Source of the DNA: Planctomycetota bacterium
GTDB taxonomy: Bacteria; Planctomycetota; MHYJ01; WSZJ01
Assembly (NCBI GenBank): GCA_009773755.1
Contig: WSZJ01000001.1
Coordinates: 17,158-81,157 of the forward strand
DNA: 64,000 bases
Direction of reading: 5' to 3'
The translations under genes were made by a program, and so were the position numbers. Under the pieces are notes generated by a model, which made no database searches, was not told the origin of the DNA, and was given only the letters and a program-made list of their open reading frames with translations. Below are positions 43,325 to 61,387 of this stretch, one piece after another (position 1 is the first letter of the stretch; each line of letters begins with the position of its first letter).

Positions 43325-43483
43325 GAGACCTCCTGAAGTGGGGGGGCCAGCCTATCACAGGGCCTGCGGCGATTGGAGAGTTCTTTGCCGTTTCCCTCGC
43401 CCTTGCCCTCGCCCTTGCCATGTCACCAAAAGGAACGGAACTCCCATCCTGCAAAGCACTTCGCGCAAAGCCGGAAGGACAAC

Positions 43484-43571
43484 TCCAACCCCAACTCCAA
43501 CTCCAACCCCAAAAGGTACTACTGCCCCTGACCGGGTCATGGTTTGAATTGGAGTTGGAGTTGGGGTTGGA
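43484..43571. repeat. Large stem-loop: perfect 23-bp inverted repeat built from (CAACYC)n hexamer repeats, with a 42-nt loop
   Basis: The left arm tccaaccccaactccaactccaa (43484-43506) is the reverse complement of the right arm ttggagttggagttggggttgga (43549-43571). A ccctcgcccttgcc direct repeat lies at about 43395-43420. It sits in a divergent intergenic region about 80 nt upstream of the asparaginase gene. Confidence 0.5.
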
Positions 43572-43653
43572 ATTCTCCGTGCCGTTCCCGCGCGCCCCAC
43601 CCTTCCGCTCGATGACACCGCACTCTCCAGCAGTTACCCTCCCCCGTCGCACC

Positions 43654-45590: not shown

Positions 45591-45881
45591 ATGCCACGTC
45601 AAACCCTCGTTCTGATCCGCCGACTTGTTCTCGAGGGCAGCTATGAATTCACCGAACATGCTTGGGCTGAGGCCGCAAACGATGAACTGGACAGGATCGA
45701 CATCGAGTCGGCGATCCTGACGGGAGACATCGTCGAAGTCCAGAAGGGCGATTCGCGGGGACCGAAGTACCTGATTCGGGGATTGGCGACGGACTTGGTG
45801 CGGCAGGTAGGGGTCGTCCTGCGAGTTCGCGTGAAAAAGACCTGTGTTATTATCACCGTGTATGAAGTCGCGAAAGCCTGA
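45591..45881 (+). CDS. DUF4258-like small protein (putative toxin partner of a TA-like pair)
   Basis: A 96-aa protein with a TEHAWAEA...IDIESAI segment. This pattern is typical of DUF4258 proteins that pair with YgiT-type zinc-finger proteins. Confidence 0.55.
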   Translation: MPRQTLVLIRRLVLEGSYEFTEHAWAEAANDELDRIDIESAILTGDIVEVQKGDSRGPKYLIRGLATDLVRQVGVVLRVRVKKTCVIITVYEVAKA

Positions 45882-46131
45882 CGGAATGTACAACCATCCC
45901 TGCGAGTATTGCAGCGGCGGTCGCGTCGAGTGCGTCGTGATGCCACGCGAGCTGATCCGGGTGGGCAAGACAGGGTTCGTCGCACTCGAGCAGGCCCCTA
46001 TCGGCGTCTGCACCCGATGCAAGGCGAAGTACTACCACGCTTCCGTGATTCGGCAGGCCGAGTCGCTCTTGCATCGCCGCCGCGGGCGCGTCGTGAAAGT
46101 CCCTGTCGGTAGATTTGTCGAAGCCGGATAA
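45862..46131 (+). CDS. YgiT-type (MqsA-like) zinc-finger protein, putative antitoxin/partner
   Basis: Two Cys pairs: CEYCSGG and CTRCKAKYY. It overlaps the upstream gene. Confidence 0.55.
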   Translation: MKSRKPDGMYNHPCEYCSGGRVECVVMPRELIRVGKTGFVALEQAPIGVCTRCKAKYYHASVIRQAESLLHRRRGRVVKVPVGRFVEAG

Positions 46132-46176
46132 GCGAGTCTGGATCTGTCCAGCCGTGCAGGTGGGTTGCGCGGCCCC

Positions 46177-47109
46177 TTAATCCAACAGATCCTGCCAGAC
46201 GCGCTTTGGGCAGGGGGTGCGCGGAATCACGAACTCTGTTACGTCGAACGGCGGCACGTGTTCTTTGATCTGGTTTCTCGTCATCTGGCTGGCAACCCAC
46301 GCCGGATTCCATTGCCATCCGAGTAGCCCGGATGATTTCAACTTCTCGTGCAGCTCGGTTGTCATCACGAGGTGAGGGCTCGGCGGCATCGTTGCATCTC
46401 CAAACGCGACGTCCGAACGTGAGAGCGGACGACGCGGAAGTCTCTGGAGCAGCGTCTCGCCCCTCGGATAAATGACGGATTCTCCGCACATCTGGCATCG
46501 CCGCTTTCGGCGCACTCGCATCGGGGGAATGGCAAGGCGCACCACGGGCGTCACTTGCATCGAGTAGTAGGGTCCAACCCGTCCCGCACCTGCGTCCTTT
46601 ACCCGAACGAAAACGCAGCAACCTGGCGCATACCTCTCCAGGAATCGCTTTGCGCGTTCGGAAACGATGTCCTCCCAATCCATGTAAGTCGTGACGAAGT
46701 CCTTTCCTCGGGCACGGCTCAAATCCAGCGAAAGCGGGTGCACTTGCTTCCGACTGGTGTATCCGCAGGACGCACAGCGCTGGCGGCGATAAAAGTCTCC
46801 CTTCGTTGAAGAGCCATCTATCCCGACACCGGCGACCCCGAACACGCACGCAGGTATTTGCTTCGCCTCCTCCTTCGAATAGGTGCGCCTGATCCGCGTA
46901 TCGCACCAGAAGCCTTTAGGCAGCTTGGCGATGACTTCCGCTCGAAATTTGAGGAGTTCAGGATCGCCGGATTCGAAAGTGATGAAGTGACTTGCAAGGT
47001 TGTACTTCGTATGAGCACGACGATTCCACCGCGTCAGCAGTGGAGTCACTTCTTCATACTCCACCGTGTAGACCTTGTAGCTGACGCACAGGATGAAAGT
47101 GTCTCTCAT
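46177..47109 (-). CDS. Hypothetical protein with two CxxC pairs; lower GC than its neighbours
   Basis: A 310-aa ORF with CASCGY and CQMCGE pairs. Its composition by eye is about 55-57% GC against about 68% nearby. It is adjacent to the TA-like pair. Confidence 0.5.
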   Translation of the reverse strand: MRDTFILCVSYKVYTVEYEEVTPLLTRWNRRAHTKYNLASHFITFESGDPELLKFRAEVIAKLPKGFWCDTRIRRTYSKEEAKQIPACVFGVAGVGIDGSSTKGDFYRRQRCASCGYTSRKQVHPLSLDLSRARGKDFVTTYMDWEDIVSERAKRFLERYAPGCCVFVRVKDAGAGRVGPYYSMQVTPVVRLAIPPMRVRRKRRCQMCGESVIYPRGETLLQRLPRRPLSRSDVAFGDATMPPSPHLVMTTELHEKLKSSGLLGWQWNPAWVASQMTRNQIKEHVPPFDVTEFVIPRTPCPKRVWQDLLD

Positions 47110-47121
47110 CCCCGCACTCGC

Positions 47122-50100
47122 TTACTTCCCCTTCACCCTCAACACCACCTGCCTCTTCTCCGCATCGTCGATCGCCTTGCACAGATCGCCGAACGCGCCC
47201 CACCGCGACGGATCGATGTCCATCTGGTTGAACTCGGCCCTGCGCTCGACGCTGAGAGTCCGGCCGTCCAGCCGGTACGTCAGGTTATACGTCCCGAACT
47301 CGGTCGCGAGCGCGACGCTGTCGGGGACCTTGATCTCGGCGTAGTCGGGGAGCTCGATGGTCATCCAGCCGCAGGTCGTGACCTGCTGGGCCCAGTAGGC
47401 GCGCATCGGGAGCTTGCGGTCGCTTTCGCGGACGAGCTGCTGGGAGAGGTTGAGGGGCGGGGCGATGCCGCGGAAGGTGATCCTGTCGGAGTCGGGCTTG
47501 CGCTGGGCGAAGCTCTTGCAGGTTCCCTCGAAGGAGATGGCGAGCTCGGGCTGGTCGAGATCGAACTCGTTGACCTCGGTTTTCGCGACGGTGACGCCCT
47601 TGAAGAACATGTTGGCGCGCTGCTGGACGATCGTGCGGAGCTGCGCGGGGTCGACGACCTGCTCGAGCTGGTTGCGGACCATGCCAGCGATCCCCTGCGA
47701 GAAGACGAGCGCGCCTCCGACGTCGGCCATCGCGTTCTCGTCGACCTTTGCGTGGAGGCGGACGGAGATCACCTTTTCCTCGAGCGGCACCGAGGGCATG
47801 TCGCGGAAGTACACGTTGCGCCCCTCGACGACCATCGCGTCGCCGCCGTAGACGTTGTTCGGAAGCGCGCCCCAGCTGTTCCAGCGCGACGGCCAGAGCC
47901 AGACGTCCTTCCTGTCGAGGTGCACCAGGAAGATCGGCGTGCCGTACGGCGGCTGGCCGAGGTCGGGGTCGTACTCCTTCCACATCGGTTTCGGCCCGCG
48001 CGCGAACGCGAGCCCGAAGGGAATCTCGGCGGCGCGGAGGAGCGACATGAAGAGGTCGTCGGCCTGTCCTTCCTTCTCCGCCAGCGTGTGGCTCGGGATG
48101 CGGTTCTGGCCCGCCTTGATCTCGCTCACGACGTACTTGAAGATCGCACGCACTTTCGCCTCGCGGTCCGCGCATCCCTTCGTCAGCTCCGCCGCCTTCG
48201 CAACGACGTCCAGAGTCACCGGCAGCCCCATCGCCTGCGAACGGAAGTTCTCGATCGTCGGCTCCATCGTCGGCTTGCCGGACAGGAACTTCACGGTCGC
48301 GAGCCATTCGTCCTCCGGCGCCATGCTCAGCTCTTCCTCGATCTCCGCAAGGTCGCGGAACTCCCATTCGTGCGTCGTCGTCTCCGCCGTGTCCGTGACC
48401 TTCGCCTCTTCCATTCGCGGCGCCACCAGCCGCACCGGCGCGCCCTTGGGCATCACGACGACATAGCGGCTGAGGAGGACGGGCTCATTGAAGTGCCGGA
48501 ACGGCGCCGGCGTTTCGACGGCGAAGACCGGCTGGTCGACGCCGATCGGACCGCGCGAAGTCGACGTGCGGAACTCCAGCACGGCGCCGCGCTCGAGCTC
48601 CGGCATGCGGATCCCGCCGCGGTCCTGCGCGTCGTCGGCCTCGAGAATGCGGCCGTCGGGGGTGAAGACGCGAAGCTCGCGGATGCGGAAGTGTTCCCAG
48701 TCGCCGCGGCCGAGCGGAAGCTGGCCGTACTGCTCGCCGCCTTCTTTCGAGAGGATCATGATGACGCGGTGCTCGTCTTCTTCCATCCACTTGAAGTCGG
48801 CGCCGATGATGCGCACGAGGCGCTGCTCGAACAGGACCGCCGTGTGCAGCGTCTTCCCGAACTTGTCCGGGGACGGCGCTTCCTTCACGAGCTTCGCCAC
48901 GTCCATGTCCCACGGCTTCGTCCAGTCGTCGCCGTCGCCGGCGAGGAAGGCGAGGTACCGGCGGGAGGCCTCGTCGTAGGCGTTGATGCGCGCGGGGGCC
49001 TTCAGGACGTCGGCCATGAGGGCACGCGCCTTTTCGAGAAGGTTGTGGTCGACGTAGAACTGCAGGAGCCGCTGGAGGGTGGAGCCGTTGCGGGGGTTCA
49101 TCGCAACGGCTTCCCTGATCAGCGCTTCCGCCTCGTCGAGCTTCCCCTGGCGCTCGCGGAGCGCGGCAATCTGCTGGACGACGCCGTCGTTGCGGGGGTA
49201 GCACTTGCGGTACGCCTCGAGCGCGGCCATCTGCTCGTCGACCTTTCCGGCCTGCCCGAGCAGCTCGATCTCCTCCCAGTACGCCACGAACCCGTTGGCC
49301 TTCTTGATCGCGGCGATGACCTCGAACGCGGCGGGGTAGTTCAGCTCGGCGGCGTGCTCGCGCGCCAGGGCCGCGGCGTTGCCGTAGTCGCCGGCGCCGC
49401 ACTCGGCGGCCCTTCGCAGCGCCTTGATCTGCTCGGCGCGCCAGCCGCGGTTCGCCTGGATCTGCGCGAGCGCGGTCCACGCTTCGGGGCAGTTCGGGTT
49501 GGCGGACAGGATCTGCTGGAGAATGTCGACCGCCTTCTCGGTTTCCTTCTCGGCCTTCTCGCGCGAGAGCGAGAGCAGCGAAGGGACGAAGCGCGGGTCC
49601 AGCGCGACCGCGCGCTCCTGGTGCGTGCGCGCGATGTTCGCGCGGCGCGACGGCGGCAGGAATTCGTAATCCGCCACGAACGCGCCGCGGAAGAACTGCA
49701 CGTAGGCGGAGAGCACGCCCTTGTCGAACGCGCGCACGCAGACGTCCTCGGCTTCCTGCGAGAGCCCCGCGACCTGCAGGAGCTGAGTCACGAGCACCGC
49801 TTCGCGAAGCGTGCAGGCCGCAAGATCCTTCGCTTTGGGGACCAGGGTCGAGTAACAATCCCCCGCAAGTTGCCCGCCGCGCGCCTCGCGGCCGTTCGGC
49901 GCCTTGTCCGCTTCCTTGTCGAGAATCGCGCTCTCGACGTCCGTCATCGACCTGCCGTCGGCGTGATGCAGCGTCAGCTCGTGCGCGTACTGGAACCCCG
50001 GCGCCACGTACTTCACCAGCAGCACATTCGCGCCCTTCGACAGCGTCACCCCGTACCACTTTTCGTTCGAGCCCTCGTACCTCACAAGGTCGTTCACGCC

Positions 50101-50967
50101 GACAAGCGCGCCGTTCAGCCAGATCTTCACGCTCATCGACGTCACGATCCGGATCCAGCCGTCACGCTCGTCCGGGCACATCAGCGCCGCGTGCATGAAG
50201 AAACAAGATCCGCGGTTCGTGAAGGACCGCACCGCTGTGGTGCCGTCGGTATCCCCCACCCCATGCTCCACCGCGGCCCACACCGCCTTCCCCGTCCCCA
50301 CCGTGTACGCCGCCGCCGGCTTGAATTCGCTCTCCGGCGGAAGCGGGTCGTCCCAGCACGCCGCGCCGCCCTGGCCGAAGAAACCGATCGAGTGCCACTT
50401 TGCGATGTGCCCCTGCGCCTTCCACTCCTCCAGCGCCAGGTCCGTCCGAACCTGCGTCTCGTAGAGGCTCTCGAGCCACTGATGAAGCGCGAACTGCGTG
50501 AAGACGTTTTTCGTCTTCGACAGAAGGTCCTTCGCGAATTCGATCCGCTTCGGCACGGCCCACTGGTTGAAGAGGCTCTGCTGGACGCGGCCGACGCGGA
50601 AGAGCGCCTCGACGCGGGCGGAATCGGGCTCGGCGAGGGCGAGGTTTCTGACCGCATCGGCGCCGATGTCATTCTGCATGCGGGAGAGAGAAGAGGTGTG
50701 GACGCCTTCCCAGGCGTCACCCGACTTCGGGTCGAGCTCGGCCGCCCGCTTGAATTCCACGAGCGCGCGGTCGGCGTCGTTCTGATAGAGGAGGAGCGCC
50801 CAGCCGAGCTTGACCTGGTCGGCGCACGAGCGCCTGGACTCGGGAATGCTCGTCAGCTTTGCGGTCGCGGCCTCGGCGGATTCCTTGTCGAGCCAGAAGA
50901 TGGAATCGTCGGCGCGAAGGGAGAGGGCTGAGAAAAGAAGGAGTGTGAGAAGGCGAAGGCTTTTCAT
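47122..50967 (-). CDS. Large secreted TPR + DUF3857/transglutaminase-like domain protein
   Basis: It starts at MKSLRLLTLLLFSALSLRADD. It has an N-terminal TPR-like region and a central beta-rich domain. A transglutaminase-like core lies around GCADREAKVRAIFKYV...LFMSLLRAAEIP. Confidence 0.8.
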   Translation of the reverse strand: MKSLRLLTLLLFSALSLRADDSIFWLDKESAEAATAKLTSIPESRRSCADQVKLGWALLLYQNDADRALVEFKRAAELDPKSGDAWEGVHTSSLSRMQNDIGADAVRNLALAEPDSARVEALFRVGRVQQSLFNQWAVPKRIEFAKDLLSKTKNVFTQFALHQWLESLYETQVRTDLALEEWKAQGHIAKWHSIGFFGQGGAACWDDPLPPESEFKPAAAYTVGTGKAVWAAVEHGVGDTDGTTAVRSFTNRGSCFFMHAALMCPDERDGWIRIVTSMSVKIWLNGALVGVNDLVRYEGSNEKWYGVTLSKGANVLLVKYVAPGFQYAHELTLHHADGRSMTDVESAILDKEADKAPNGREARGGQLAGDCYSTLVPKAKDLAACTLREAVLVTQLLQVAGLSQEAEDVCVRAFDKGVLSAYVQFFRGAFVADYEFLPPSRRANIARTHQERAVALDPRFVPSLLSLSREKAEKETEKAVDILQQILSANPNCPEAWTALAQIQANRGWRAEQIKALRRAAECGAGDYGNAAALAREHAAELNYPAAFEVIAAIKKANGFVAYWEEIELLGQAGKVDEQMAALEAYRKCYPRNDGVVQQIAALRERQGKLDEAEALIREAVAMNPRNGSTLQRLLQFYVDHNLLEKARALMADVLKAPARINAYDEASRRYLAFLAGDGDDWTKPWDMDVAKLVKEAPSPDKFGKTLHTAVLFEQRLVRIIGADFKWMEEDEHRVIMILSKEGGEQYGQLPLGRGDWEHFRIRELRVFTPDGRILEADDAQDRGGIRMPELERGAVLEFRTSTSRGPIGVDQPVFAVETPAPFRHFNEPVLLSRYVVVMPKGAPVRLVAPRMEEAKVTDTAETTTHEWEFRDLAEIEEELSMAPEDEWLATVKFLSGKPTMEPTIENFRSQAMGLPVTLDVVAKAAELTKGCADREAKVRAIFKYVVSEIKAGQNRIPSHTLAEKEGQADDLFMSLLRAAEIPFGLAFARGPKPMWKEYDPDLGQPPYGTPIFLVHLDRKDVWLWPSRWNSWGALPNNVYGGDAMVVEGRNVYFRDMPSVPLEEKVISVRLHAKVDENAMADVGGALVFSQGIAGMVRNQLEQVVDPAQLRTIVQQRANMFFKGVTVAKTEVNEFDLDQPELAISFEGTCKSFAQRKPDSDRITFRGIAPPLNLSQQLVRESDRKLPMRAYWAQQVTTCGWMTIELPDYAEIKVPDSVALATEFGTYNLTYRLDGRTLSVERRAEFNQMDIDPSRWGAFGDLCKAIDDAEKRQVVLRVKGK

Positions 50968-51094
50968 GAGAACTCCGCAGGGTTGGACGAACGGCTTCAT
51001 TTGAACTCCCGGTCGGTTGCTTTCGTGGCTGTGGCCGTCGCTCCAGGTGAGCTTCAGAATCGATTGGAGGCTCTTCGCTGACTCAGGACCGGCC

Positions 51095-51261
51095 TATCCG
51101 TTTTCATCCGTTGTTATCCGCGACCAAAGCCGTTTCTATCGACTTTTCTTCCTGCTTTTCATTCAGCTCGTTGGGTCAGAGCTTCAAGATCCGGATGAAA
51201 GACCGGATCAACCCCGATACGAACGTCCTTGGTCGCGGATAACAACGGATGAAAACGGATA
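51095..51261. mobile_element. MITE-like element: 167 bp with perfect 33-bp terminal inverted repeats and a lower-GC core
   Basis: The left terminal repeat tatccgttttcatccgttgttatccgcgaccaa (51095-51127) is the exact reverse complement of the right one (51229-51261). The 101-bp interior contains cggatgaaa sub-repeats. It has no coding capacity. Confidence 0.55.
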
Positions 51262-51307
51262 CGCCCGGCTTTGCGGGCGATTCTCTGAGCTACTCCCCTG
51301 ACCTTTG

Positions 51308-54300
51308 CTACTTCTCCGGCTCAATCACGATTTCGTCGTCCTGCGCACGGTCGATTTCTCCTGCGAAATCTCTCCACGCCTTGTAGTCCCCCTTCGGAAT
51401 CCGCGGCGCCTTCAATGTCATGCCGCTCTCGACCTCGATCCGGTTTCCGTCCGCCCTCGCCTTCAGGTGGAACGCGCCGAGCGGCGTGTCGCGGTCGACC
51501 GCCGCGGGCAGGCTGCGCGCCTTCCAGCCGGCCGGCAATTCGAAGATCACCTTCTCGCTCCGCGTCCGCGGGAATTCGAGCAGCAGGTCGTGCTGCCGCT
51601 CCGAGAGCTGCCCGTAGTTCTCGAGCATCTTCGAGGGGAACAGCGACGGACGGATCACGACGCCGCGGCCTTCCTTGCGCGCAAAGTGCGGCACGCTGTA
51701 CTCCGCCGTGTACTCGACCGGCAGGTTGTAGTTCGACAGGTCGTTGAACGAGAGCTTGTTCACCTTCACCGAGTCGAACGTCCTGTTGTACCAGCTCTCC
51801 CACTCCTTCTCGCGCTTCGCCCCTTCCTGGAACCGGCTCCGCATCTGCCCGGCGTCCATCCCCGTCACCGTCCCCTTCTCTACGACCGTCGCGCTTCCGT
51901 CCTCCTTGATCGTCACCGTGATCACGCGCTGGCGGGCGTTCATCTCCGGCGGGAGCCAGTCGCTGATCTGCGCGGCGGCCTTGTCGTCCTGCCGCACGAT
52001 GAAAACAAGCGCGCCCTGGTCCATCGACGGCAGGTCCTTCACCGAGTAGTAGCGCGCCGTGCCGTCGACAAACATTCCTTTGCCGTTCCCCGCGTCCGGC
52101 ACCCACGCGATGCAGTGGTCGAATACCTTCATCGACGGCAGCCCCGTCGCAATCGCGCCGCCGGAATTCGTCCGGATGAGCACCATGTTCGCCTCTTCAC
52201 CGGCCTCGCGCATCATCGTCACGAAGAGCGTCGCCGTGTCCTTGCAGTCGCCGTAGTGGCGCTCGAACGTCTCGCTGGCCTTGAAGGGCAGGTACGCGTG
52301 GTTCTCGAGGCCGAGCGCCTCGTAGCGCGTCCGGCTCACCATGAGCTGGTACAGCGCCTCGATCTTTTCCATTTTCGTCTTCGCGCCCGCCACCGCCTTC
52401 TTCACCTCGACCTTCATTTCCTCCGACGCCTCGAACCGGTCCTTCACCAGCCCGCTGAACCACTCGCCGACGTCCTGCCAGGTCTTGAAGGTCGAGAAGT
52501 GCAGGTACGGGACCGTCTCGTAGAACGCGGGCATCGCGGGCTCGTCCTGGATATAGCCGATGTTGGCGATCTCCCAGGTCGTGATCAGCGTCTTGTCCTT
52601 CTGGGTGATCTCAGGCTTCGAATTGAACCGCACCGCTTCGTGGTAAATCGGCTTCGTCTCCGGGTGCACCAGCGTGATCTTCGCGTTCGCGACCGGCTGG
52701 AATTCCGGCTGAAGCGGCAGGAGCAGCCCGAAGTACCCCTTGTAGCGCGGCTCGCCGCTCTCCTCCATCTGGAACTCCATCACGATCACGTCGCCCGCGT
52801 TGGGATTCGGGAAGCGGCAGCTCCACTGCCCTTCGCGCCGTTCGCCCTCGACCTCGGTCCCGTCCGGGCGGATGAGCTTCGCCGTCCTGAATTCCGCGCG
52901 CCCGCCGCTGAACGTGTCGAAATGCCCGCCGATCGCGGAGGCGAAGCGGAAATCGTTGGCGGCCTTGTCGTCGTGCAGCTTGATGACCTGCTGGGTGAAG
53001 TAATTGCAGGTTCCGTTCTCGTTCACGAAGACGGCGTCGTGCTTGAAGAGGTAGGTCGCCGACTCGTCGCCCTGTTTCCTGGCTGCCTTGGCCGCGTCGA
53101 GGTAGGGCTTCAGCTCGACTTCGTACCCGCGCCAGAATTCTTTCTCCTTCGGCTTGAGCGACCGGAGCCGCTTCGTCACGTCGGGCTGGTTCGGCCGGAC
53201 CGCGAGCGCGTCGCCCAGCCATTTCACGGCTTCGTCGTTCTTCTCCGCCGAAATCGCGCAGTTCGCGGCCGCGATCATCGCGCTGATGTTCTCCGGTGAA
53301 ATCGCGAGCGCGGCCCGGTACCGCGCCGTCGCCTTGTCCCATTCCCCTCTCGACTCGTGAATCGACGCGGCCAGCATGTGCGCATTCACGTCGAAGGGCT
53401 GCATCGCGAGCCTGCCGTCGCAGAGCGCGATCGCCTTCGCGAACTCCCCGGTCCTGCGATAAACGCCGATCAGCTGCCCGCGCACTCCGAAGTCGAGCCC
53501 CCAGCCCGCAAGCCTTTCCTCGAGCCACTTCGTCTGCTCCACCGGCGCGTCGTTCGACATCCGCGCCAGGTCCGCCTTCGCGATCCCGTGGTTCGGGAAG
53601 TCCTTGATGATCCCCTGGTAGATCTTCTTCGCCTCGTTCACCCACACGCCGCCGCGCCGCGCGTAGAGCTGCGCGAGGTCCATCCGCGCCATGACCATCC
53701 CCTTGCGCGCCGCGAGCGCTTCCTCGAAGCGCATCTTCGCCTTGTCGTCGATCTGCCCCTGGTGCAGTTCGCCCTCCTTGCAGAGGATGAGCGCGGAGCC
53801 CGGGGAGAGATCCATGGCCTTGTGGAGCGCCGGCAGCCGGCGGTTCTTCGCCTCCTCGGCCGACCCGAGCCAGAGCCAGAACACCGGCTCGCCGTCGGCG
53901 ATCTTCACCGCCTCGCGCAGCAGGTCGCGCGCTCCGCGGTCGTTCTCGTCCAGCTCGTGGCGGTGCAACTTCAGGAACGCGAGCCGCGCCCGCGACAGCG
54001 CGTCGTCGCTCTTCGCCTTCACATTTTCGACCAGCACGCCCTCGGATCCGGTCTCGACTTTCGGCGCCTCAACGCCCGACCGCTCCGAAACCTTCAGCCC
54101 CTTCGCTCTCGCCAGGTCCCCTTCGCTCTCCCACCCGGCCAGCTTCCGCCCGTCCGGTTCCGTCAGGCGAAGCCCGAATTCCCACGACAGGTCTTCGAGA
54201 TTCTTCGTGTCCTCGCCGCCGCCTTTCTGGCAGACCTTCACGAGAATCACGTTCCAGCCCTTCTCCAGCACCGCCCCCGCCGCGTCCTGGTCGAATCCCG

Positions 54301-55132
54301 CCTGCCGGTAGCAGTCGGAAGTCAGCGCGAGCTTTCCGTTCACCCAGACTTTCGTCGCGCCGTCGCTCGCAAGGCGAAGCGCCACGGGTTTCGTCGCATC
54401 GCTTTTCACGTAGGCCGCGGCGTACGCGCAGACGTCGCTCGCGAGCCGGAAGAGCTGCGCCATGTCGACTTCGCCGAAGCTGGCGCGCGCGGCCGAACGG
54501 AACCAGCGGTTCGCCCCGTGCTTCCCTTCGTGTTCCTTGTCGAGTCCGGAATCCTTCTCCGGCCCGTACACGTTCTTGAAGCCGGTCTCCGACTCGTTGT
54601 CGAACGGCCCGCAGAGGAACCAGTCGCGCACGAAGCCCAGCTCGACCGCCTCCTTCTCCGCGTCCGCGATCTTCCCTTTTCCCCTCGCCACCAGCATCCG
54701 GTAGTTCCGCGCGTGCGCCTCGGCCAGCGGATGAAGCCCTTTCGGCAGCAGCCGGTCCGTCGCCCGGACGATTTCCTCCGTCACGTCGTCGTCCGCAAAG
54801 TCCGCGGCTTCCATGTAGCGCGACCAGTAGTAGTCACACATGGGGGAAGCGGCGTTTGCGGCCATGAGCGATTCGTACGCCTTCATTTCGTTGTCGAAAT
54901 CGCCGGAGAGCATCTGTCGAAGCGCGGCTTCTTCCTCGCCGAGCGGCACGGTCTTCGGCTTCGCCGCAGGCTTTTCATCCGGCTTGTCCGCGGGTTTGTC
55001 CGCGGGCTTGTCGGTGGTGGCTGTCGTCCCTCCGCCGCCGGAATCGGCGGGCTTCTTTTCGGATTCGGAAGAGCACCCCGCGAAGACGGCGGCGAGGAAG
55101 AGGGCAGCAGCGGCGGCGGGGAGAAAACGCAT
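51308..55132 (-). CDS. Large TPR + DUF3857/transglutaminase-like lipoprotein, tandem paralog of 47122-50967
   Basis: It starts at MRFLPAAAAALFLAAVFAGC (lipobox). It has (KPAD)n repeats near the N-terminus and a TPR region. The transglutaminase-like core is HYGDCKDTATLFVTMMREAG. Confidence 0.8.
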   Translation of the reverse strand: MRFLPAAAAALFLAAVFAGCSSESEKKPADSGGGGTTATTDKPADKPADKPDEKPAAKPKTVPLGEEEAALRQMLSGDFDNEMKAYESLMAANAASPMCDYYWSRYMEAADFADDDVTEEIVRATDRLLPKGLHPLAEAHARNYRMLVARGKGKIADAEKEAVELGFVRDWFLCGPFDNESETGFKNVYGPEKDSGLDKEHEGKHGANRWFRSAARASFGEVDMAQLFRLASDVCAYAAAYVKSDATKPVALRLASDGATKVWVNGKLALTSDCYRQAGFDQDAAGAVLEKGWNVILVKVCQKGGGEDTKNLEDLSWEFGLRLTEPDGRKLAGWESEGDLARAKGLKVSERSGVEAPKVETGSEGVLVENVKAKSDDALSRARLAFLKLHRHELDENDRGARDLLREAVKIADGEPVFWLWLGSAEEAKNRRLPALHKAMDLSPGSALILCKEGELHQGQIDDKAKMRFEEALAARKGMVMARMDLAQLYARRGGVWVNEAKKIYQGIIKDFPNHGIAKADLARMSNDAPVEQTKWLEERLAGWGLDFGVRGQLIGVYRRTGEFAKAIALCDGRLAMQPFDVNAHMLAASIHESRGEWDKATARYRAALAISPENISAMIAAANCAISAEKNDEAVKWLGDALAVRPNQPDVTKRLRSLKPKEKEFWRGYEVELKPYLDAAKAARKQGDESATYLFKHDAVFVNENGTCNYFTQQVIKLHDDKAANDFRFASAIGGHFDTFSGGRAEFRTAKLIRPDGTEVEGERREGQWSCRFPNPNAGDVIVMEFQMEESGEPRYKGYFGLLLPLQPEFQPVANAKITLVHPETKPIYHEAVRFNSKPEITQKDKTLITTWEIANIGYIQDEPAMPAFYETVPYLHFSTFKTWQDVGEWFSGLVKDRFEASEEMKVEVKKAVAGAKTKMEKIEALYQLMVSRTRYEALGLENHAYLPFKASETFERHYGDCKDTATLFVTMMREAGEEANMVLIRTNSGGAIATGLPSMKVFDHCIAWVPDAGNGKGMFVDGTARYYSVKDLPSMDQGALVFIVRQDDKAAAQISDWLPPEMNARQRVITVTIKEDGSATVVEKGTVTGMDAGQMRSRFQEGAKREKEWESWYNRTFDSVKVNKLSFNDLSNYNLPVEYTAEYSVPHFARKEGRGVVIRPSLFPSKMLENYGQLSERQHDLLLEFPRTRSEKVIFELPAGWKARSLPAAVDRDTPLGAFHLKARADGNRIEVESGMTLKAPRIPKGDYKAWRDFAGEIDRAQDDEIVIEPEK

Positions 55133-60207: not shown

Positions 60208-60238
60208 GCGGAGGCGGATGACGCCTCCGCGTTTTTTT
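60208..60238 (+). terminator. Rho-independent terminator
   Basis: gcggaggcg-gatga-cgcctccgc followed by TTTTTTT. It lies 20 nt after the stop at 60187. Confidence 0.65.
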
Positions 60239-60280
60239 GTCGATCGACTTTCGGGCCGACTGCGCGATTACACTCGCCCC

Positions 60281-61159
60281 ATGCCCCGGACGGCACTGGC
60301 CGCAGCACTTCTTCTCCACTCCGCGTTCGCGGCGGCGGAAGACGCCGCCTCCGTCGAAATCCGTCCCGGCGTCAAGACAGGGTCGAAGATCACTCGCACG
60401 ACGGAGACGCGCGGCAAAGGGACGATCACGCGGGAGTCCGACGGCGCTTCGACGGATTTCGAATGCACGATGTCGGGAGTCGAAGAGCTGGCCGAAGAAG
60501 TGCTCGAGGCGAAGGACGGGCGCGCCCTGAAGGCGAAGCGCCGCTACGAGCGAAAGGAGTCGGTCTTCGAGGTGCCGTCGGTCGGCAGGAAGGAGGAAAA
60601 GGCCAGCTCCCTGCCCGGGCGTGTGCTCACGTTGGAGCGAAAGGACGGAAGAACGCGGGCGACGAGCCTGGAGAAAAACGTCGAACCGAGAGATCTTGCC
60701 TCCGAGACGCTGGACGACGAGTGGGATGTGCCGGTCGCGGCCCCGGGACCGGTTGCCGTGGGAGATACATGGAAGCCGGACGGCGCCGCCGTGAAAGCGT
60801 GGGCCTCGGCGCGGGGGCGGACGGTGGAGGAGGCGTCGCTCGAGTGCAAACTCGCGGAGATCGCGCCCTTGGAAGGACGGAGCTGCGCGAGACTCGAGAT
60901 CGAATTCGCTGCCAAGGGGACAACGAAACCGGGTGAAAGGCAGCCGGAGCAGAGAGTCGCGTGGACGCTCAAAGGCAACGTCTGGTGGAGCCTCGACGAC
61001 GCGCGCGTGGTGGCGTTCGACCTGAAGGGAAAACTGACGCTCGAGTGGGAGATCGAGGCAGCGGCTGGAAAGCCGGCAGAGAAGTGGAGGAGTTCCATGA
61101 AGATCGGGCTGGAGGGGAAGAGCGCGCCGGGGGAGGCGGAGTTTTCGGATACGAAGTGA
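60281..61159 (+). CDS. Secreted hypothetical protein (paralog 2 of 59267-60187)
   Basis: It starts at MPRTALAAALLLHSAFAAAE. Blocks shared with paralog 1 are EEVLEAKDG, VGDTWKPDGAAVKAW versus VGDSWEADPEKAKNAF, and ASLECKLAE versus ASLACTLES. Confidence 0.6.
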   Translation: MPRTALAAALLLHSAFAAAEDAASVEIRPGVKTGSKITRTTETRGKGTITRESDGASTDFECTMSGVEELAEEVLEAKDGRALKAKRRYERKESVFEVPSVGRKEEKASSLPGRVLTLERKDGRTRATSLEKNVEPRDLASETLDDEWDVPVAAPGPVAVGDTWKPDGAAVKAWASARGRTVEEASLECKLAEIAPLEGRSCARLEIEFAAKGTTKPGERQPEQRVAWTLKGNVWWSLDDARVVAFDLKGKLTLEWEIEAAAGKPAEKWRSSMKIGLEGKSAPGEAEFSDTK

Positions 61160-61169
61160 TTGAAGCGAT

Positions 61170-61300
61170 AGGGGCAAGCGGGCGGGCGGGCAGGCGTGCG
61201 GGCGGGCGGGCAGGCGGGCAGGCGGGCAGGCAAAGAACAATCCTCCCCTAATAACGGAGGGTATTTTTTTCGCCCGCTCGCCCGCTCGCCCGCCCGGCTT
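61170..61300. repeat. GGGC-tetranucleotide-rich G-tract array, weak hairpin plus T-run, then complementary C-rich array (imperfect long inverted repeat; possible terminator and G4 motif)
   Basis: The G-rich arm is gggcgggcgggcaggcgtgcgggcgggcgggcaggcgggcaggcgggcaggc (61175-61231). A small hairpin cctcc..ggagg plus TTTTTTT follows (61242-61270). The C-rich arm is cgcccgctcgcccgctcgcccgcccgg (61271-61297). Confidence 0.5.
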
Positions 61301-61387
61301 CCCATTTCTCATGGCCTTGCCCGCTTCGCTATACTCGCCCCACTTCCAGCGCCCGCCAGGAATCGGGCGCCCCTCTTGAAAGCCCTC

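What the first reader, a model, noticed from the sequence alone, without database searches (positions are those of the whole stretch)
51095..51261. 167-bp MITE-like element with perfect 33-bp terminal inverted repeats between two tandem giant transglutaminase-like paralogs
The terminal repeats tatccgttttcatccgttgttatccgcgaccaa (51095-51127) and (51229-51261) are exact inverse copies. The 101-bp interior is lower-GC than the genome and has internal cggatgaaa sub-repeats. It has no ORF. It sits in the 307-bp gap between paralogous 1280-aa genes, so it may have mediated or followed their duplication. It could also form a roughly 160-nt structured RNA.
Basis: seen in the sequence. Interest (0 to 1): 0.55.

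Follow-up and report, generated by a model that had tools for sequence, protein, structure and literature searches.

The report
Palindromic insertion between two giant genes
The 167-bp palindrome is real and was inserted, in this planctomycete lineage only, into the short spacer between two co-oriented giant exported-protein genes; it belongs to a small family of non-coding hairpin repeats, for which I found no published description, whose arms are rows of ATCC boxes one DNA turn apart, and similar box rows flank a widespread small nuclease gene (GxxExxY) in other phyla.

Summary
Positions 51095-51127 and 51229-51261 are exact 33-bp inverse copies. GC is 48% in the element against 66% in the window.

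The element is an insertion. The same gene pair, in the same synteny, has a spacer of only 38-76 bp and no palindrome in four related genomes; here the spacer is 340 bp. The two genes are ancient paralogs (20% identity) and sit in tandem in all four relatives. The element therefore did not mediate their duplication.

Related elements lie at unrelated intergenic sites in two Planctomycetia MAGs and in wetland metagenomes. Each arm is a 65-70-nt module: ATCC boxes every 10-11 bp, then a conserved tail. There are two distinguishable arm types, A and B. The centres are not conserved.

There is no target-site duplication, no transposase partner and no second copy in the 64 kb. It is therefore MITE-like but not shown to be a MITE.

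One B-arm in another member leads into a promoter and a GxxExxY (PD-(D/E)XK) gene fragment. In other phyla, inverted ATCC/GGAT decamer rows directly flank GxxExxY genes.

Most likely it is a gene-less derivative of a small hairpin-bounded selfish cassette. It is probably co-transcribed as a long hairpin inside the A-B transcript.

Interest is moderate.

The parts
51095..51127 (+). Left perfect 33-bp arm: three decamer units ATCCGTTTTC / ATCCGTTGTT / ATCCGCGACC, preceded by T and followed by AA
51229..51261 (-). Right perfect 33-bp arm, the exact reverse complement of the left arm
51091..51156 (+). B-type arm module (ATCC boxes plus tail ..AAAGCCGTTTCTATCG..TTTTCATTCAGCTC). It is homologous to the B-arms of L112/L117, L113, L111, L118 and L071.
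   Evidence: nhmmer E = 5e-14; alignment A3
51196..51264 (-). A-type arm module (ATCC boxes plus tail ..AAGGACGTTCGTATCGGGGTTGATCC..). It is homologous to the A-arms of L111, L113, L119, L120 and L118.
   Evidence: nhmmer E = 2e-15; alignment A2
51157..51195 (.). Centre between the two arm modules. It is poorly conserved across the family (35-56% identity to the other members).
51188..51209 (.). Small inner hairpin GATCCGG-atgaaaga-CCGGATC. A similar ATCCGG...CCGGAT hairpin lies in the centre of L085.
51262..51279 (-). GC hairpin CGCCCG-caaagc-CGGGCG, abutting the element. On the sense (minus) strand it is followed by UAUCCGUUUU from the A-arm, so it looks like a terminator for gene A. The call is not significant against shuffles.
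50968..51307 (-). 340-bp A-B spacer that carries the insertion. The orthologous spacers are 38-76 bp.
51308..55132 (-). Gene A: 1274-aa lipoprotein-like protein with TPR, DUF3857, Transglut_core and DUF3858. It lies upstream of the element in the direction of transcription.
47122..50967 (-). Gene B: 1281-aa protein with a signal peptide and the same architecture as gene A (the Transglut_core match is below the Pfam cut-off). It lies downstream of the element.

Best explanation
The element is a lineage-specific insertion of a small, non-coding palindromic repeat. It belongs to a sparse, dispersed family in Planctomycetia.

Anatomy. It consists of two non-identical arm modules, A and B, of about 65-70 nt each, facing each other across a short unconserved centre. 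Each arm is a row of ATCC boxes phased every 10-11 bp, followed by a conserved tail (GYGACC-CCGYCGTTC-nTATCG...).

Origin (inferred). It is a gene-less, MITE-like derivative of a small hairpin-bounded selfish cassette of the kind that carries a GxxExxY PD-(D/E)XK nuclease gene. The invariant, helically phased boxes are the part that whatever protein moves or maintains the element would recognise. In this copy the outer 33 bp of the two arms have been homogenised to perfect identity.

Effect (inferred). It lies in what is a 38-76-bp intercistronic spacer in relatives, so it is probably transcribed with genes A and B. It would then fold into a long perfect hairpin, a plausible RNase III or exonuclease-barrier site, which would uncouple or modulate expression of A relative to B. 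Correia and ERIC elements are reported to act in this way.

Shown: the palindrome, the insertion, the family, and the box and arm anatomy. Inferred: the mobilising agent, the derivation from a cassette, and the effect at RNA level.
For: Insertion:
- Four relatives have identical synteny (rhomboid, LipA acyltransferase, A, B, asparaginases, CutA1, PQQ protein).
- Their A-B spacers are 39 bp (L103, gene B 81% identical), 76 bp (L105/L106, 73%), 64 bp (L107, 72%) and 38 bp (L109, 53%), against 340 bp here. None has the arms.

Family:
- Arm-HMM hits with E from 1e-10 to 1e-15 occur in L071 and L085 (Planctomycetia MAGs) and in L111-L120 (wetland metagenomes), at unrelated loci.
- Arms are 72-90% identical between members; centres are 35-65% identical.
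- The ATCC boxes are invariant columns, whereas the A-arm spacers vary.

A and B arm types, and solo arms:
- Shown: - The window's B-arm aligns for about 90 nt with the L112/L117 B-arm. That arm is followed by TTGACA-17-TATCAT and by a 5' fragment of a GxxExxY gene.

Link to GxxExxY in other phyla:
- All three inverted ATCC/GGAT-array pairs with more than 300 bp between the arrays enclose a GxxExxY gene (L097, L035, L004).
- GxxExxY genes in three further contexts are enclosed by near-perfect inverted rows of CACAGAG/CACGGAG units.

Composition and folding:
- GC is 48% against 66% for the window.
- The hairpin folds at -112 kcal/mol, z = -9.4.

Homogenisation:
- Complementarity over the box region is 31/31 here and 25-27/31 in the four other paired members.

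Precedent for RNA-level effects of co-transcribed palindromic repeats: PMC2229807.
Against: - No target-site duplication, apart from the self-complementary terminal TA, here or in five other members.
- No transposase, integrase or GxxExxY gene in the 22 kb annotated around the element (window 37122-59151). tblastn finds no GxxExxY gene anywhere in the window.
- Only one copy in 64 kb. The copy number in the whole genome could not be measured, because the source MAG is not in the searchable genome collection.
- The family looks rare: about 7 distinct elements in the whole metagenome scan.
- The boxes have the opposite polarity, relative to the interior, to the GxxExxY-bearing pairs of other phyla (converging against diverging). 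Common ancestry with those is therefore not shown.
- Only one family member (L112/L117) links an arm to a GxxExxY gene, and it has no second arm.
- About 130 bp of the extra spacer lies outside the palindrome and is unexplained.
- There is no expression evidence.
Confidence: 0.6

Rival explanations
1. It is a classical MITE: a deletion derivative of an insertion sequence, mobilised in trans by a DDE transposase (for example IS630/Tc1-like with a TA target).
For: - It has terminal inverted repeats, is 167 bp long, is AT-richer than the genome and is non-coding.
- It begins with 5'-TA and ends with TA-3', as most bacterial MITEs are said to do (PMC2229807).
- Filled and empty sites exist among relatives.
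- Related copies exist elsewhere.
Against: - The terminal TA is part of the palindrome and is absent from most family members, which start CATCC.
- No direct repeat flanks any of the six paired members.
- No partner element with a transposase was found in any locus.
- Centres are not conserved between copies, unlike MITE families amplified from one progenitor.
- The two arms are of different types.
- No second copy lies in the 64 kb.
Confidence: 0.15
2. It is a cis-regulatory protein-binding array. The rows of ATCC boxes, phased one helical turn apart and facing each other across about 100 bp, would be operators for a DNA-binding protein (for example a winged-helix response regulator or a ribbon-helix-helix protein) that loops the DNA and controls gene B or the neighbouring promoters.
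For: - The ATCC boxes and their 10-11-bp phasing are invariant, whereas the A-arm spacers vary and the mismatches are mostly uncompensated.
- Solo arms lie 50-80 nt upstream of consensus-like sigma-70 promoters in L112/L117 and L120.
- The element lies upstream of gene B.
Against: - The arms occur at unrelated genes and in both orientations relative to the genes.
- No promoter-like site lies in or beside the window element.
- The site is empty in all four relatives, so regulation of the A-B pair does not need it.
- No candidate regulator lies nearby.
Confidence: 0.1
3. It is an invertible promoter switch (inverton). The inverted repeats would be recombinase sites, and flipping the 101-bp interior would switch the exported protein B on and off.
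For: - A perfect inverted repeat flanks about 100 bp just upstream of a gene for a large secreted protein.
- In other phyla the arms are shared between loci while the interiors differ. This pattern is also seen in regulons controlled by a master invertase (own knowledge).
Against: - Independent assemblies show only one orientation: L101 against the window and L111 against L114.
- No promoter-like hexamers lie in the interior on either strand.
- No recombinase gene lies in the 22 kb annotated around the element (window 37122-59151).
- Some related pairs are only 14-20 bp apart, which is too close to invert.
- Gene B can be expressed from the A-B operon, as in relatives.
Confidence: 0.07
4. It is a gene for a structured non-coding RNA of about 160 nt, or a riboregulator.
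For: - The fold is very stable.
- Pairing within elements is slightly above the shuffled-partner control: 90.2% against 87.3%, with 5 of 500 shuffles as high.
Against: - No Rfam match, even at E = 10.
- The RNAalifold covariation term is unfavourable at +2.24.
- Most double changes come from the window copy itself, whose arms are identical. 25 of 41 pairs never vary.
- No promoter was found.
- Solo arms exist.
Confidence: 0.05

Closest known systems
Bacterial MITEs and palindromic intergenic repeats (Correia/NEMIS of Neisseria, ERIC/IRU, Rickettsia RPE, Yersinia YPAL; reviewed in PMC2229807)
   Same: - Under 200 bp, non-coding and AT-richer than the genome.
- Terminal inverted repeats and a long predicted stem-loop.
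- Intergenic and co-oriented with an operon.
- Filled and empty sites among relatives.
- Expected RNA-level effects (RNase III cleavage, mRNA stability).
   Different: - No target-site duplication and no known transposase partner.
- The arms are rows of 10-bp-phased ATCC boxes, with distinct A and B tails.
- The centres are unconserved.
- The family is sparse rather than high-copy, as far as could be measured.
23S rRNA intervening sequences carrying small ORFs (for example the Coxiella burnetii IVS, PMC4990558)
   Same: - A small selfish element bounded by a near-perfect inverted repeat of about 28 bp that forms an RNase III stem.
- Short tandem repeats next to the stem (GACAGAT heptamers in Coxiella).
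- A small ORF in the loop. ORF-less forms also exist in other bacteria (own knowledge).
- The GxxExxY cassettes seen here have the same layout.
   Different: - The window element is not in an rRNA gene and carries no ORF.
- The ORF family is GxxExxY (PD-(D/E)XK), not the four-helix-bundle S23p.
- RNase III processing was not tested.
REP doublets (REPIN, BIME) mobilised by RAYT transposases (REP superfamilies: PMC3733652)
   Same: Two conserved short modules in inverted orientation, separated by a less conserved spacer. They are intergenic and form a hairpin.
   Different: - Each REP is itself a 20-40-bp palindrome with a GTAG or CGTC head. The arms here are direct-repeat rows, are not palindromes and lack that head.
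- No RAYT gene was seen.
Transposon ends with several subterminal transposase-binding repeats (Tn7, Mu, IS21, Tn402; own knowledge)
   Same: Repeated short binding-site-like boxes in each end, and two ends that are not identical.
   Different: - In those elements the binding sites are about 19-22 bp long and the elements are kilobases long and encode their transposases.
- They make target-site duplications.

Membership tests
MITE (strict sense) | Terminal inverted repeats | tested here: met
   33/33 perfect, 51 nt at 90%
MITE (strict sense) | Small size and no coding capacity | tested here: met
   The element is 167 bp. Only mechanical ORFs cross it, and it has no Rfam match.
MITE (strict sense) | Target-site duplication flanking the element | tested here: not met
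   Only the self-complementary TA lies at the tips. The flanks ..GACCGGCC| and |CGCCCGGC.. give no register-exact direct repeat. None was found in L071, L085, L111, L113 or L118 either.
MITE (strict sense) | Many similar copies within one genome | tested here: inconclusive
   There is one copy in the 64-kb window and none in about 80 kb of relatives' loci. The source MAG is not in the searchable genome collection. L071's and L085's genomes each gave one hit to a strict pattern.
MITE (strict sense) | Cognate autonomous element with the same ends and a transposase | tested here: not met
   None was found in any of the 120+ loci, in viral contigs or in plasmids. The test is limited by the short metagenome contigs.
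MITE (strict sense) | Filled versus empty orthologous sites | tested here: met
   Four relatives have 38-76-bp spacers without the element. The closest is only 81% identical in protein, so the exact insertion boundaries cannot be read.
REP / REPIN / BIME | Each unit is a short imperfect palindrome with a GTAG or CGTC head, and a RAYT gene is present in the genome | tested here: not met
   The arms are direct-repeat rows, not palindromes, and have no GTAG or CGTC head. The presence of a RAYT gene in the genome could not be tested.
Inverton (invertible promoter) | Both orientations of the interior present in sequence data, a promoter inside, and a recombinase | tested here: not met
   Assemblies show a single orientation. 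No promoter-like site was found. No recombinase gene lies in window 37122-59151, the part annotated around the element. Read-level data were not available.
Intrinsic terminator | GC-rich stem followed directly by a U-run | tested here: not met
   On the sense strand the long hairpin is followed by AGGCCGGUCC. Only the small neighbouring GC hairpin (51279-51262) has a U-rich tail, and such calls are as frequent in shuffles.
Hairpin-bounded small-ORF cassette (IVS-like, GxxExxY-carrying) | Near-perfect inverted repeat made of short tandem units that encloses a small ORF | tested here: inconclusive
   The inverted repeat of tandem units is present. The ORF is absent here. The B-arm is homologous to one that precedes a GxxExxY gene fragment (L112). 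The boxes have the opposite polarity to the GxxExxY-enclosing pairs L097, L035 and L004.
Hairpin-bounded small-ORF cassette (IVS-like, GxxExxY-carrying) | Excision of the stem by RNase III | not testable with these tools
   This needs RNA-seq, RACE or an in vitro RNase III assay.
Known RNA families (Rfam 15) | Match to a covariance model | tested here: not met
   No relevant match at E <= 10 in 50000-52500.

The most novel reading that the evidence does not exclude
Inverted rows of short tandem units may be the ends of a widespread class of tiny hairpin-bounded selfish cassettes for which I found no published description. The units seen are ATCCGTTnTn decamers here and CACAGAG/CACGGAG units elsewhere. 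The cargo would be the GxxExxY PD-(D/E)XK nuclease. Gene-less hairpin derivatives would be scattered through intergenic DNA of many phyla (Planctomycetota, Pseudomonadota, Bacteroidota, Acidobacteriota and others). On this reading the window element is one such derivative, and the nuclease or a host factor recognises the phased boxes or the extruded hairpin.
Probability: 0.3. Interest if true: 0.7.

Novelty: new variant of a known kind. Interest (0 to 1): 0.45.

Why it matters
For this locus the result is modest. A recent insertion turned a tight two-gene spacer into a 340-bp spacer with a very stable hairpin, which may alter the relative expression of two giant exported TPR/transglutaminase-like proteins.

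The wider point is more interesting. The arm anatomy (phased ATCC boxes) recurs across phyla, mostly as inverted pairs. Wherever such a pair is more than 300 bp apart, it encloses a GxxExxY nuclease gene. GxxExxY is a very large and highly conserved family: more than 7,900 hits in one search, with the best about 120 at 70-85% identity and named members from Planctomycetota, Verrucomicrobiota, Acidobacteriota and Lentisphaerota. Its biology is essentially undescribed in the searchable literature (three papers mention the name).

If the boxes are the ends of a mobile nuclease cassette, this gives a concrete and testable model for how that family spreads. It would also explain many orphan intergenic hairpins.

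Tried and rejected
- Link to the duplication: rejected. The paralogs are 20% identical, and the tandem pair is present without the element in four relatives.
- Rfam scan at E <= 10: nothing relevant.
- Sigma-70 promoter scan of 50700-51600: no sites. The one terminator-like call is no more than shuffles give.
- Plasmid BLAST and a viral-contig pattern scan: no match.
- Search for further copies in the window and in relatives' loci with an arm HMM: none.
- Search for target-site duplications in six paired members: none.
- Inversion test between independent assemblies: collinear.
- Similarity of the extra spacer outside the palindrome (50968-51094, 51262-51307) and of the centre to any held locus or to the rest of the window: none. 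About 130 bp of the extra spacer is therefore unexplained.
- Resemblance of the 'GGGGAAC...GAAAACGGA' ends seen in other phyla to Tn3-family inverted repeats, of TTATCC to DnaA boxes, and of ACGGAUG to CsrA sites: these were recalled from memory only. None was tested, and I kept none. The boxes' polarity, their intergenic scatter and their pairing inside the hairpin argue against them.
- Integron attC: considered and dropped by inspection. There are no R''/R' core motifs, and the stem is perfect, with no extrahelical bases.
- Literature searches for planctomycete MITEs, for subterminal-repeat MITEs and for GxxExxY/PF13366: nothing describes this family.
- I first took the 99 genome hits as far above chance (about 0.3 expected for random sequence). 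Generic 10-bp tandem repeats inflate such counts, so I rely instead on shared tails, inverted pairing and the GxxExxY association.

Full report
**1. The observation**

The 33-mer TATCCGTTTTCATCCGTTGTTATCCGCGACCAA lies at 51095-51127 on the + strand. Its exact reverse complement lies at 51229-51261. No shuffle of the window produces a match.

- With mismatches the repeat extends to 51-nt arms at 90% complementarity. It is the longest inverted repeat in the window.
- Each arm is three units phased at exactly 10 bp: ATCCGTTTTC, ATCCGTTGTT, ATCCGCGACC.
- GC is 47.9% for the element and 49.5% for the interior, against 65.9% for the window.
- The minus-strand RNA of 51080-51300 folds at -112 kcal/mol. 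Shuffles average -67 kcal/mol, giving z = -9.4. For an inverted repeat this is expected and is not in itself evidence of function.
- The sequence is not an assembly artefact. An ENA contig (L101) has the identical 340-bp spacer. Two Logan contigs from different runs stop inside the arms, at window positions 51124 and 51232. That is what a k=31 assembler does at a 33-bp perfect inverted repeat.

**2. Context**

Both flanking genes are on the minus strand.

- Gene A (55132..51308) is a 1274-aa lipoprotein-like protein with TPR, DUF3857, Transglut_core and DUF3858.
- Gene B (50967..47122) is a 1281-aa protein with a signal peptide and the same architecture.
- They are colinear paralogs but only 20% identical over 1175 aa (E = 1e-16).
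- In the direction of transcription the element lies after A's stop codon and 127 nt before B's start codon.
- The source is an NCBI MAG labelled Planctomycetota bacterium, locus tag FD180_58.

**3. It is an insertion and has nothing to do with the duplication**

Gene B has four orthologues in the protein database, at 81, 73, 72 and 53% identity. All four lie in the same synteny: rhomboid, LipA acyltransferase, A, B, two asparaginases, CutA1, PQQ protein.

| Locus | Gene B identity | A-B spacer |
|---|---|---|
| L103 | 81% | 39 bp |
| L105/L106 | 73% | 76 bp |
| L107 | 72% | 64 bp |
| L109 | 53% | 38 bp |
| window | - | 340 bp |

- None of the relatives has the palindrome or any arm-like sequence.
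- Parsimony says that about 270-300 bp was gained in the window's lineage, long after A and B had diverged.
- The relatives are too distant for the insertion boundaries to be read.
- About 130 bp of the extra spacer lies outside the palindrome and matches nothing I hold.

**4. It has relatives elsewhere**

- A genome scan for three ATCCGTTnTn units found two Planctomycetia MAGs (L071, L085) with the same layout.
- A metagenome scan with a looser pattern anchored on ATCCGYGACC found ten loci. These represent about seven distinct elements, mostly from wetland samples.
- An HMM of the arms hits all of them at E from 1e-10 to 1e-15. In the window it hits only the two arms.
- The conserved unit is an arm module of 65-70 nt: (C)ATCC-n6-ATCC-n6-ATCC-GYGACC-CCGYCGTTC-nTATCG..., with further ATCC boxes at 10-11-bp steps.
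- The tails fall into two types. Type A has ...CGTTCGTATCGCCGTTCATCC.... Type B has ...CGTTCCTATCG-T-rich-TTTCATYCA.... Paired members have one arm of each type, and so does the window: the B-arm is at 51091-51156 and the A-arm at 51264-51196.
- Between members the arms are 72-90% identical and the centres 35-65% identical.
- The arms can be about 450 bp apart (L118).
- Arms also occur alone: L119, L120 and L112/L117.

**5. Hairpin or boxes?**

- In the five-member alignment the ATCC boxes are invariant. The B-arm is nearly invariant, and the A-arm spacers vary.
- The RNAalifold covariation term is unfavourable, at +2.24.
- Counting pairs gives 90.2% of cells paired, against 87.3 ± 1.2% when partners are shuffled among elements; 5 of 500 shuffles are as high.
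- There are six pairs with double changes, but most of those come from the window copy itself, whose arms are identical. 25 of 41 pairs never vary.
- Over the 31 box positions, complementarity is 31/31 in the window and 25-27/31 in the other four members.

I read this as follows. Each arm is conserved as sequence, through its phased boxes. There is at most a weak pull towards pairing. In this copy the outer 33 bp have been recently homogenised. The data are too few to exclude selection for a stem.

**6. What kind of element is it?**

Against a strict MITE:
- There is no target-site duplication in any of the six paired members. The terminal TA here is part of the palindrome, and most members start CATCC.
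- No transposase or integrase gene lies in the part of the window annotated through L100 and L101, 37122-59151.
- No partner element was found in any locus, plasmid or viral contig.
- The centres are unconserved, and I found few copies.

Against REP/REPIN: the arms are not palindromes and lack a GTAG or CGTC head.

Against an inverton: assemblies show a single orientation, no promoter-like site was found, and no recombinase gene is nearby.

**7. A lead: GxxExxY cassettes**

- In L112/L117 a B-arm is followed by TTGACA-17-TATCAT. Then comes the first 16 or so codons of a GxxExxY gene (MLHFEHLSYRIIGAAF...). That fragment is interrupted by a second, complete GxxExxY gene with its own CACAGAG-type flanks. 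The window's B-arm aligns with this one for about 90 nt, up to the -35 hexamer.
- Among the 110 loci brought in by the two scans, ATCC/GGAT rows form 18 'diverging' inverted pairs, in which the GGAT row comes first and the outer ends read ...GGGAACAC. The rows of a pair lie 14-565 bp apart.
- There are 7 'converging' pairs: the planctomycete family plus one Saprospirales locus.
- The only three diverging pairs with more than 300 bp between the rows each enclose a GxxExxY gene. They are L097 (Aerophototrophica), L035 (Burkholderiales) and L004 (Bacteroidales). No other GxxExxY gene occurs in these loci, except the one in L112.
- In genomes with several copies only the arms of about 50 nt are shared; the interiors are not.
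- Homologues of the L112 protein number more than 7,900. The best about 120 are 70-85% identical to it, and those carrying a source name come from Planctomycetota, Verrucomicrobiota, Acidobacteriota and Lentisphaerota.
- In three contexts examined, these genes sit inside near-perfect inverted repeats of about 27 bp built from CACAGAG/CACGGAG units. One of these contexts is in the MAG of the 72% relative.
- This layout resembles 23S rRNA intervening sequences. The Coxiella IVS has a 28-bp terminal stem cut by RNase III, tandem GACAGAT heptamers and a small ORF (PMC4990558).

Caveat: in the planctomycete family the boxes point the other way relative to the interior. The link therefore rests on the shared box motif, on the ATCCGYG(A/T)(C/T)C junction and on the single L112 locus.

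**8. How it most likely works**

Shown: it is an inserted member of a dispersed family of palindromic arm modules.

Inferred:
- It is the gene-less remnant or derivative of a hairpin-bounded cassette, and the phased boxes are the recognised part.
- In relatives A and B are separated by only 38-76 bp and are probably one operon. The element is therefore probably transcribed within the A-B RNA and folds into a perfect 33-bp stem, extended to about 50 bp.
- That stem is a plausible RNase III site or 3' exonuclease barrier. It would change the ratio of A to B, as reported for Correia and ERIC elements (PMC2229807).
- The adjacent GC hairpin (51279-51262), together with the U-rich start of the A-arm, may add a weak terminator for A. 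That call is not above chance.

**9. Novelty and verdict**

I found no description of this family, or of array-flanked GxxExxY cassettes, in the searchable literature. The element itself is a new variant of a known kind, the small palindromic intergenic insertion. At this locus its importance is modest. The cross-phylum link between box rows and GxxExxY genes is the part worth following up.

Noticed in passing
window 43470-43591: A second palindrome built from short tandem units: CAACTCCAACCCCAACTCCAACTCCAACCCCAA ... TTGGAGTTGGAGTTGGGGTTGG (CAACYC hexamer rows in inverted orientation, 36-42 nt apart). It lies in the 329-bp divergent spacer between the asparaginase gene and a 420-aa gene. The orthologous spacers of four relatives (140-270 bp) have no such rows, so it also looks like a lineage-specific insertion.
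   Followed up: partly
window 61167-61308: A third inverted pair of tandem rows: GC-rich GGGC/GGCA units on the left and CGCCCGCT units on the right. They flank a neat terminator-like hairpin, CCTCCC-ctaataac-GGAGGG-TATTTTTTT, just after the stop codon of ORF 60218-61159.
   Followed up: no
window 45591-47109: A 1.6-kb islet lies directly downstream of gene B. It holds a 310-aa ORF with no family match, an 81-aa ORF and a DUF4258 gene. It is absent at this position in relatives L104, L105 and L109. In L107 it is replaced by a UPF0175 gene plus an 82-aa gene. This looks like a variable spot for small toxin-antitoxin-like modules.
   Followed up: partly
L097 6534-6983; L035 1235-1689; L004 2101-2713; L121 1470-1910; L132 1465-1915: GxxExxY (TIGR04256, PF13366) genes are enclosed by near-perfect inverted rows of short tandem units: ACGGATnnnn decamers, or CACAGAG/CACGGAG units of 8-9 bp. 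The start codon lies inside the last unit. In L132-L141 such a cassette sits between the methylase gene and the restriction gene of an R-M operon.
   Followed up: partly
L100 1-31 and L102 4727-4757 (window 51124 and 51232): Logan (k=31) contigs end exactly inside the 33-bp arms. The perfect inverted repeat breaks short-k assemblies, so such elements will often be missing or split in public contigs.
   Followed up: yes
L061 5849-5890, L070 4405-4436, L079 5185-5226 (Terriglobia MFD00082.bin.2.4), L050: Triplets of ATCCG decamers followed by GTGGCCAAWTGTTTTTC recur in one Terriglobia genome. In two cases they lie about 30 nt upstream of members of a repeated ~197-aa gene family (MSSIVRITSSRANGAKSRGPVTPEGK...) that has no Pfam match.
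   Followed up: partly
L009, L021, L028, L043, L057, L067, L091, L092 (Saprospiraceae MAGs); L015, L022, L054, L058, L072, L086 (Fluviicola MAG): Long pure tandem arrays of ATCCGTTCTA or ATCCGTTATT (10-bp period, up to 13 or more units) occur many times per genome, often at contig ends.
   Followed up: no
L118 1504-1955: One family member has its A-arm and B-arm about 450 bp apart. Between them lies a nested gene-less inverted repeat of CACGGAG-type units, which suggests that these hairpin elements insert into one another. L112 shows a similar nesting inside a GxxExxY gene.
   Followed up: partly
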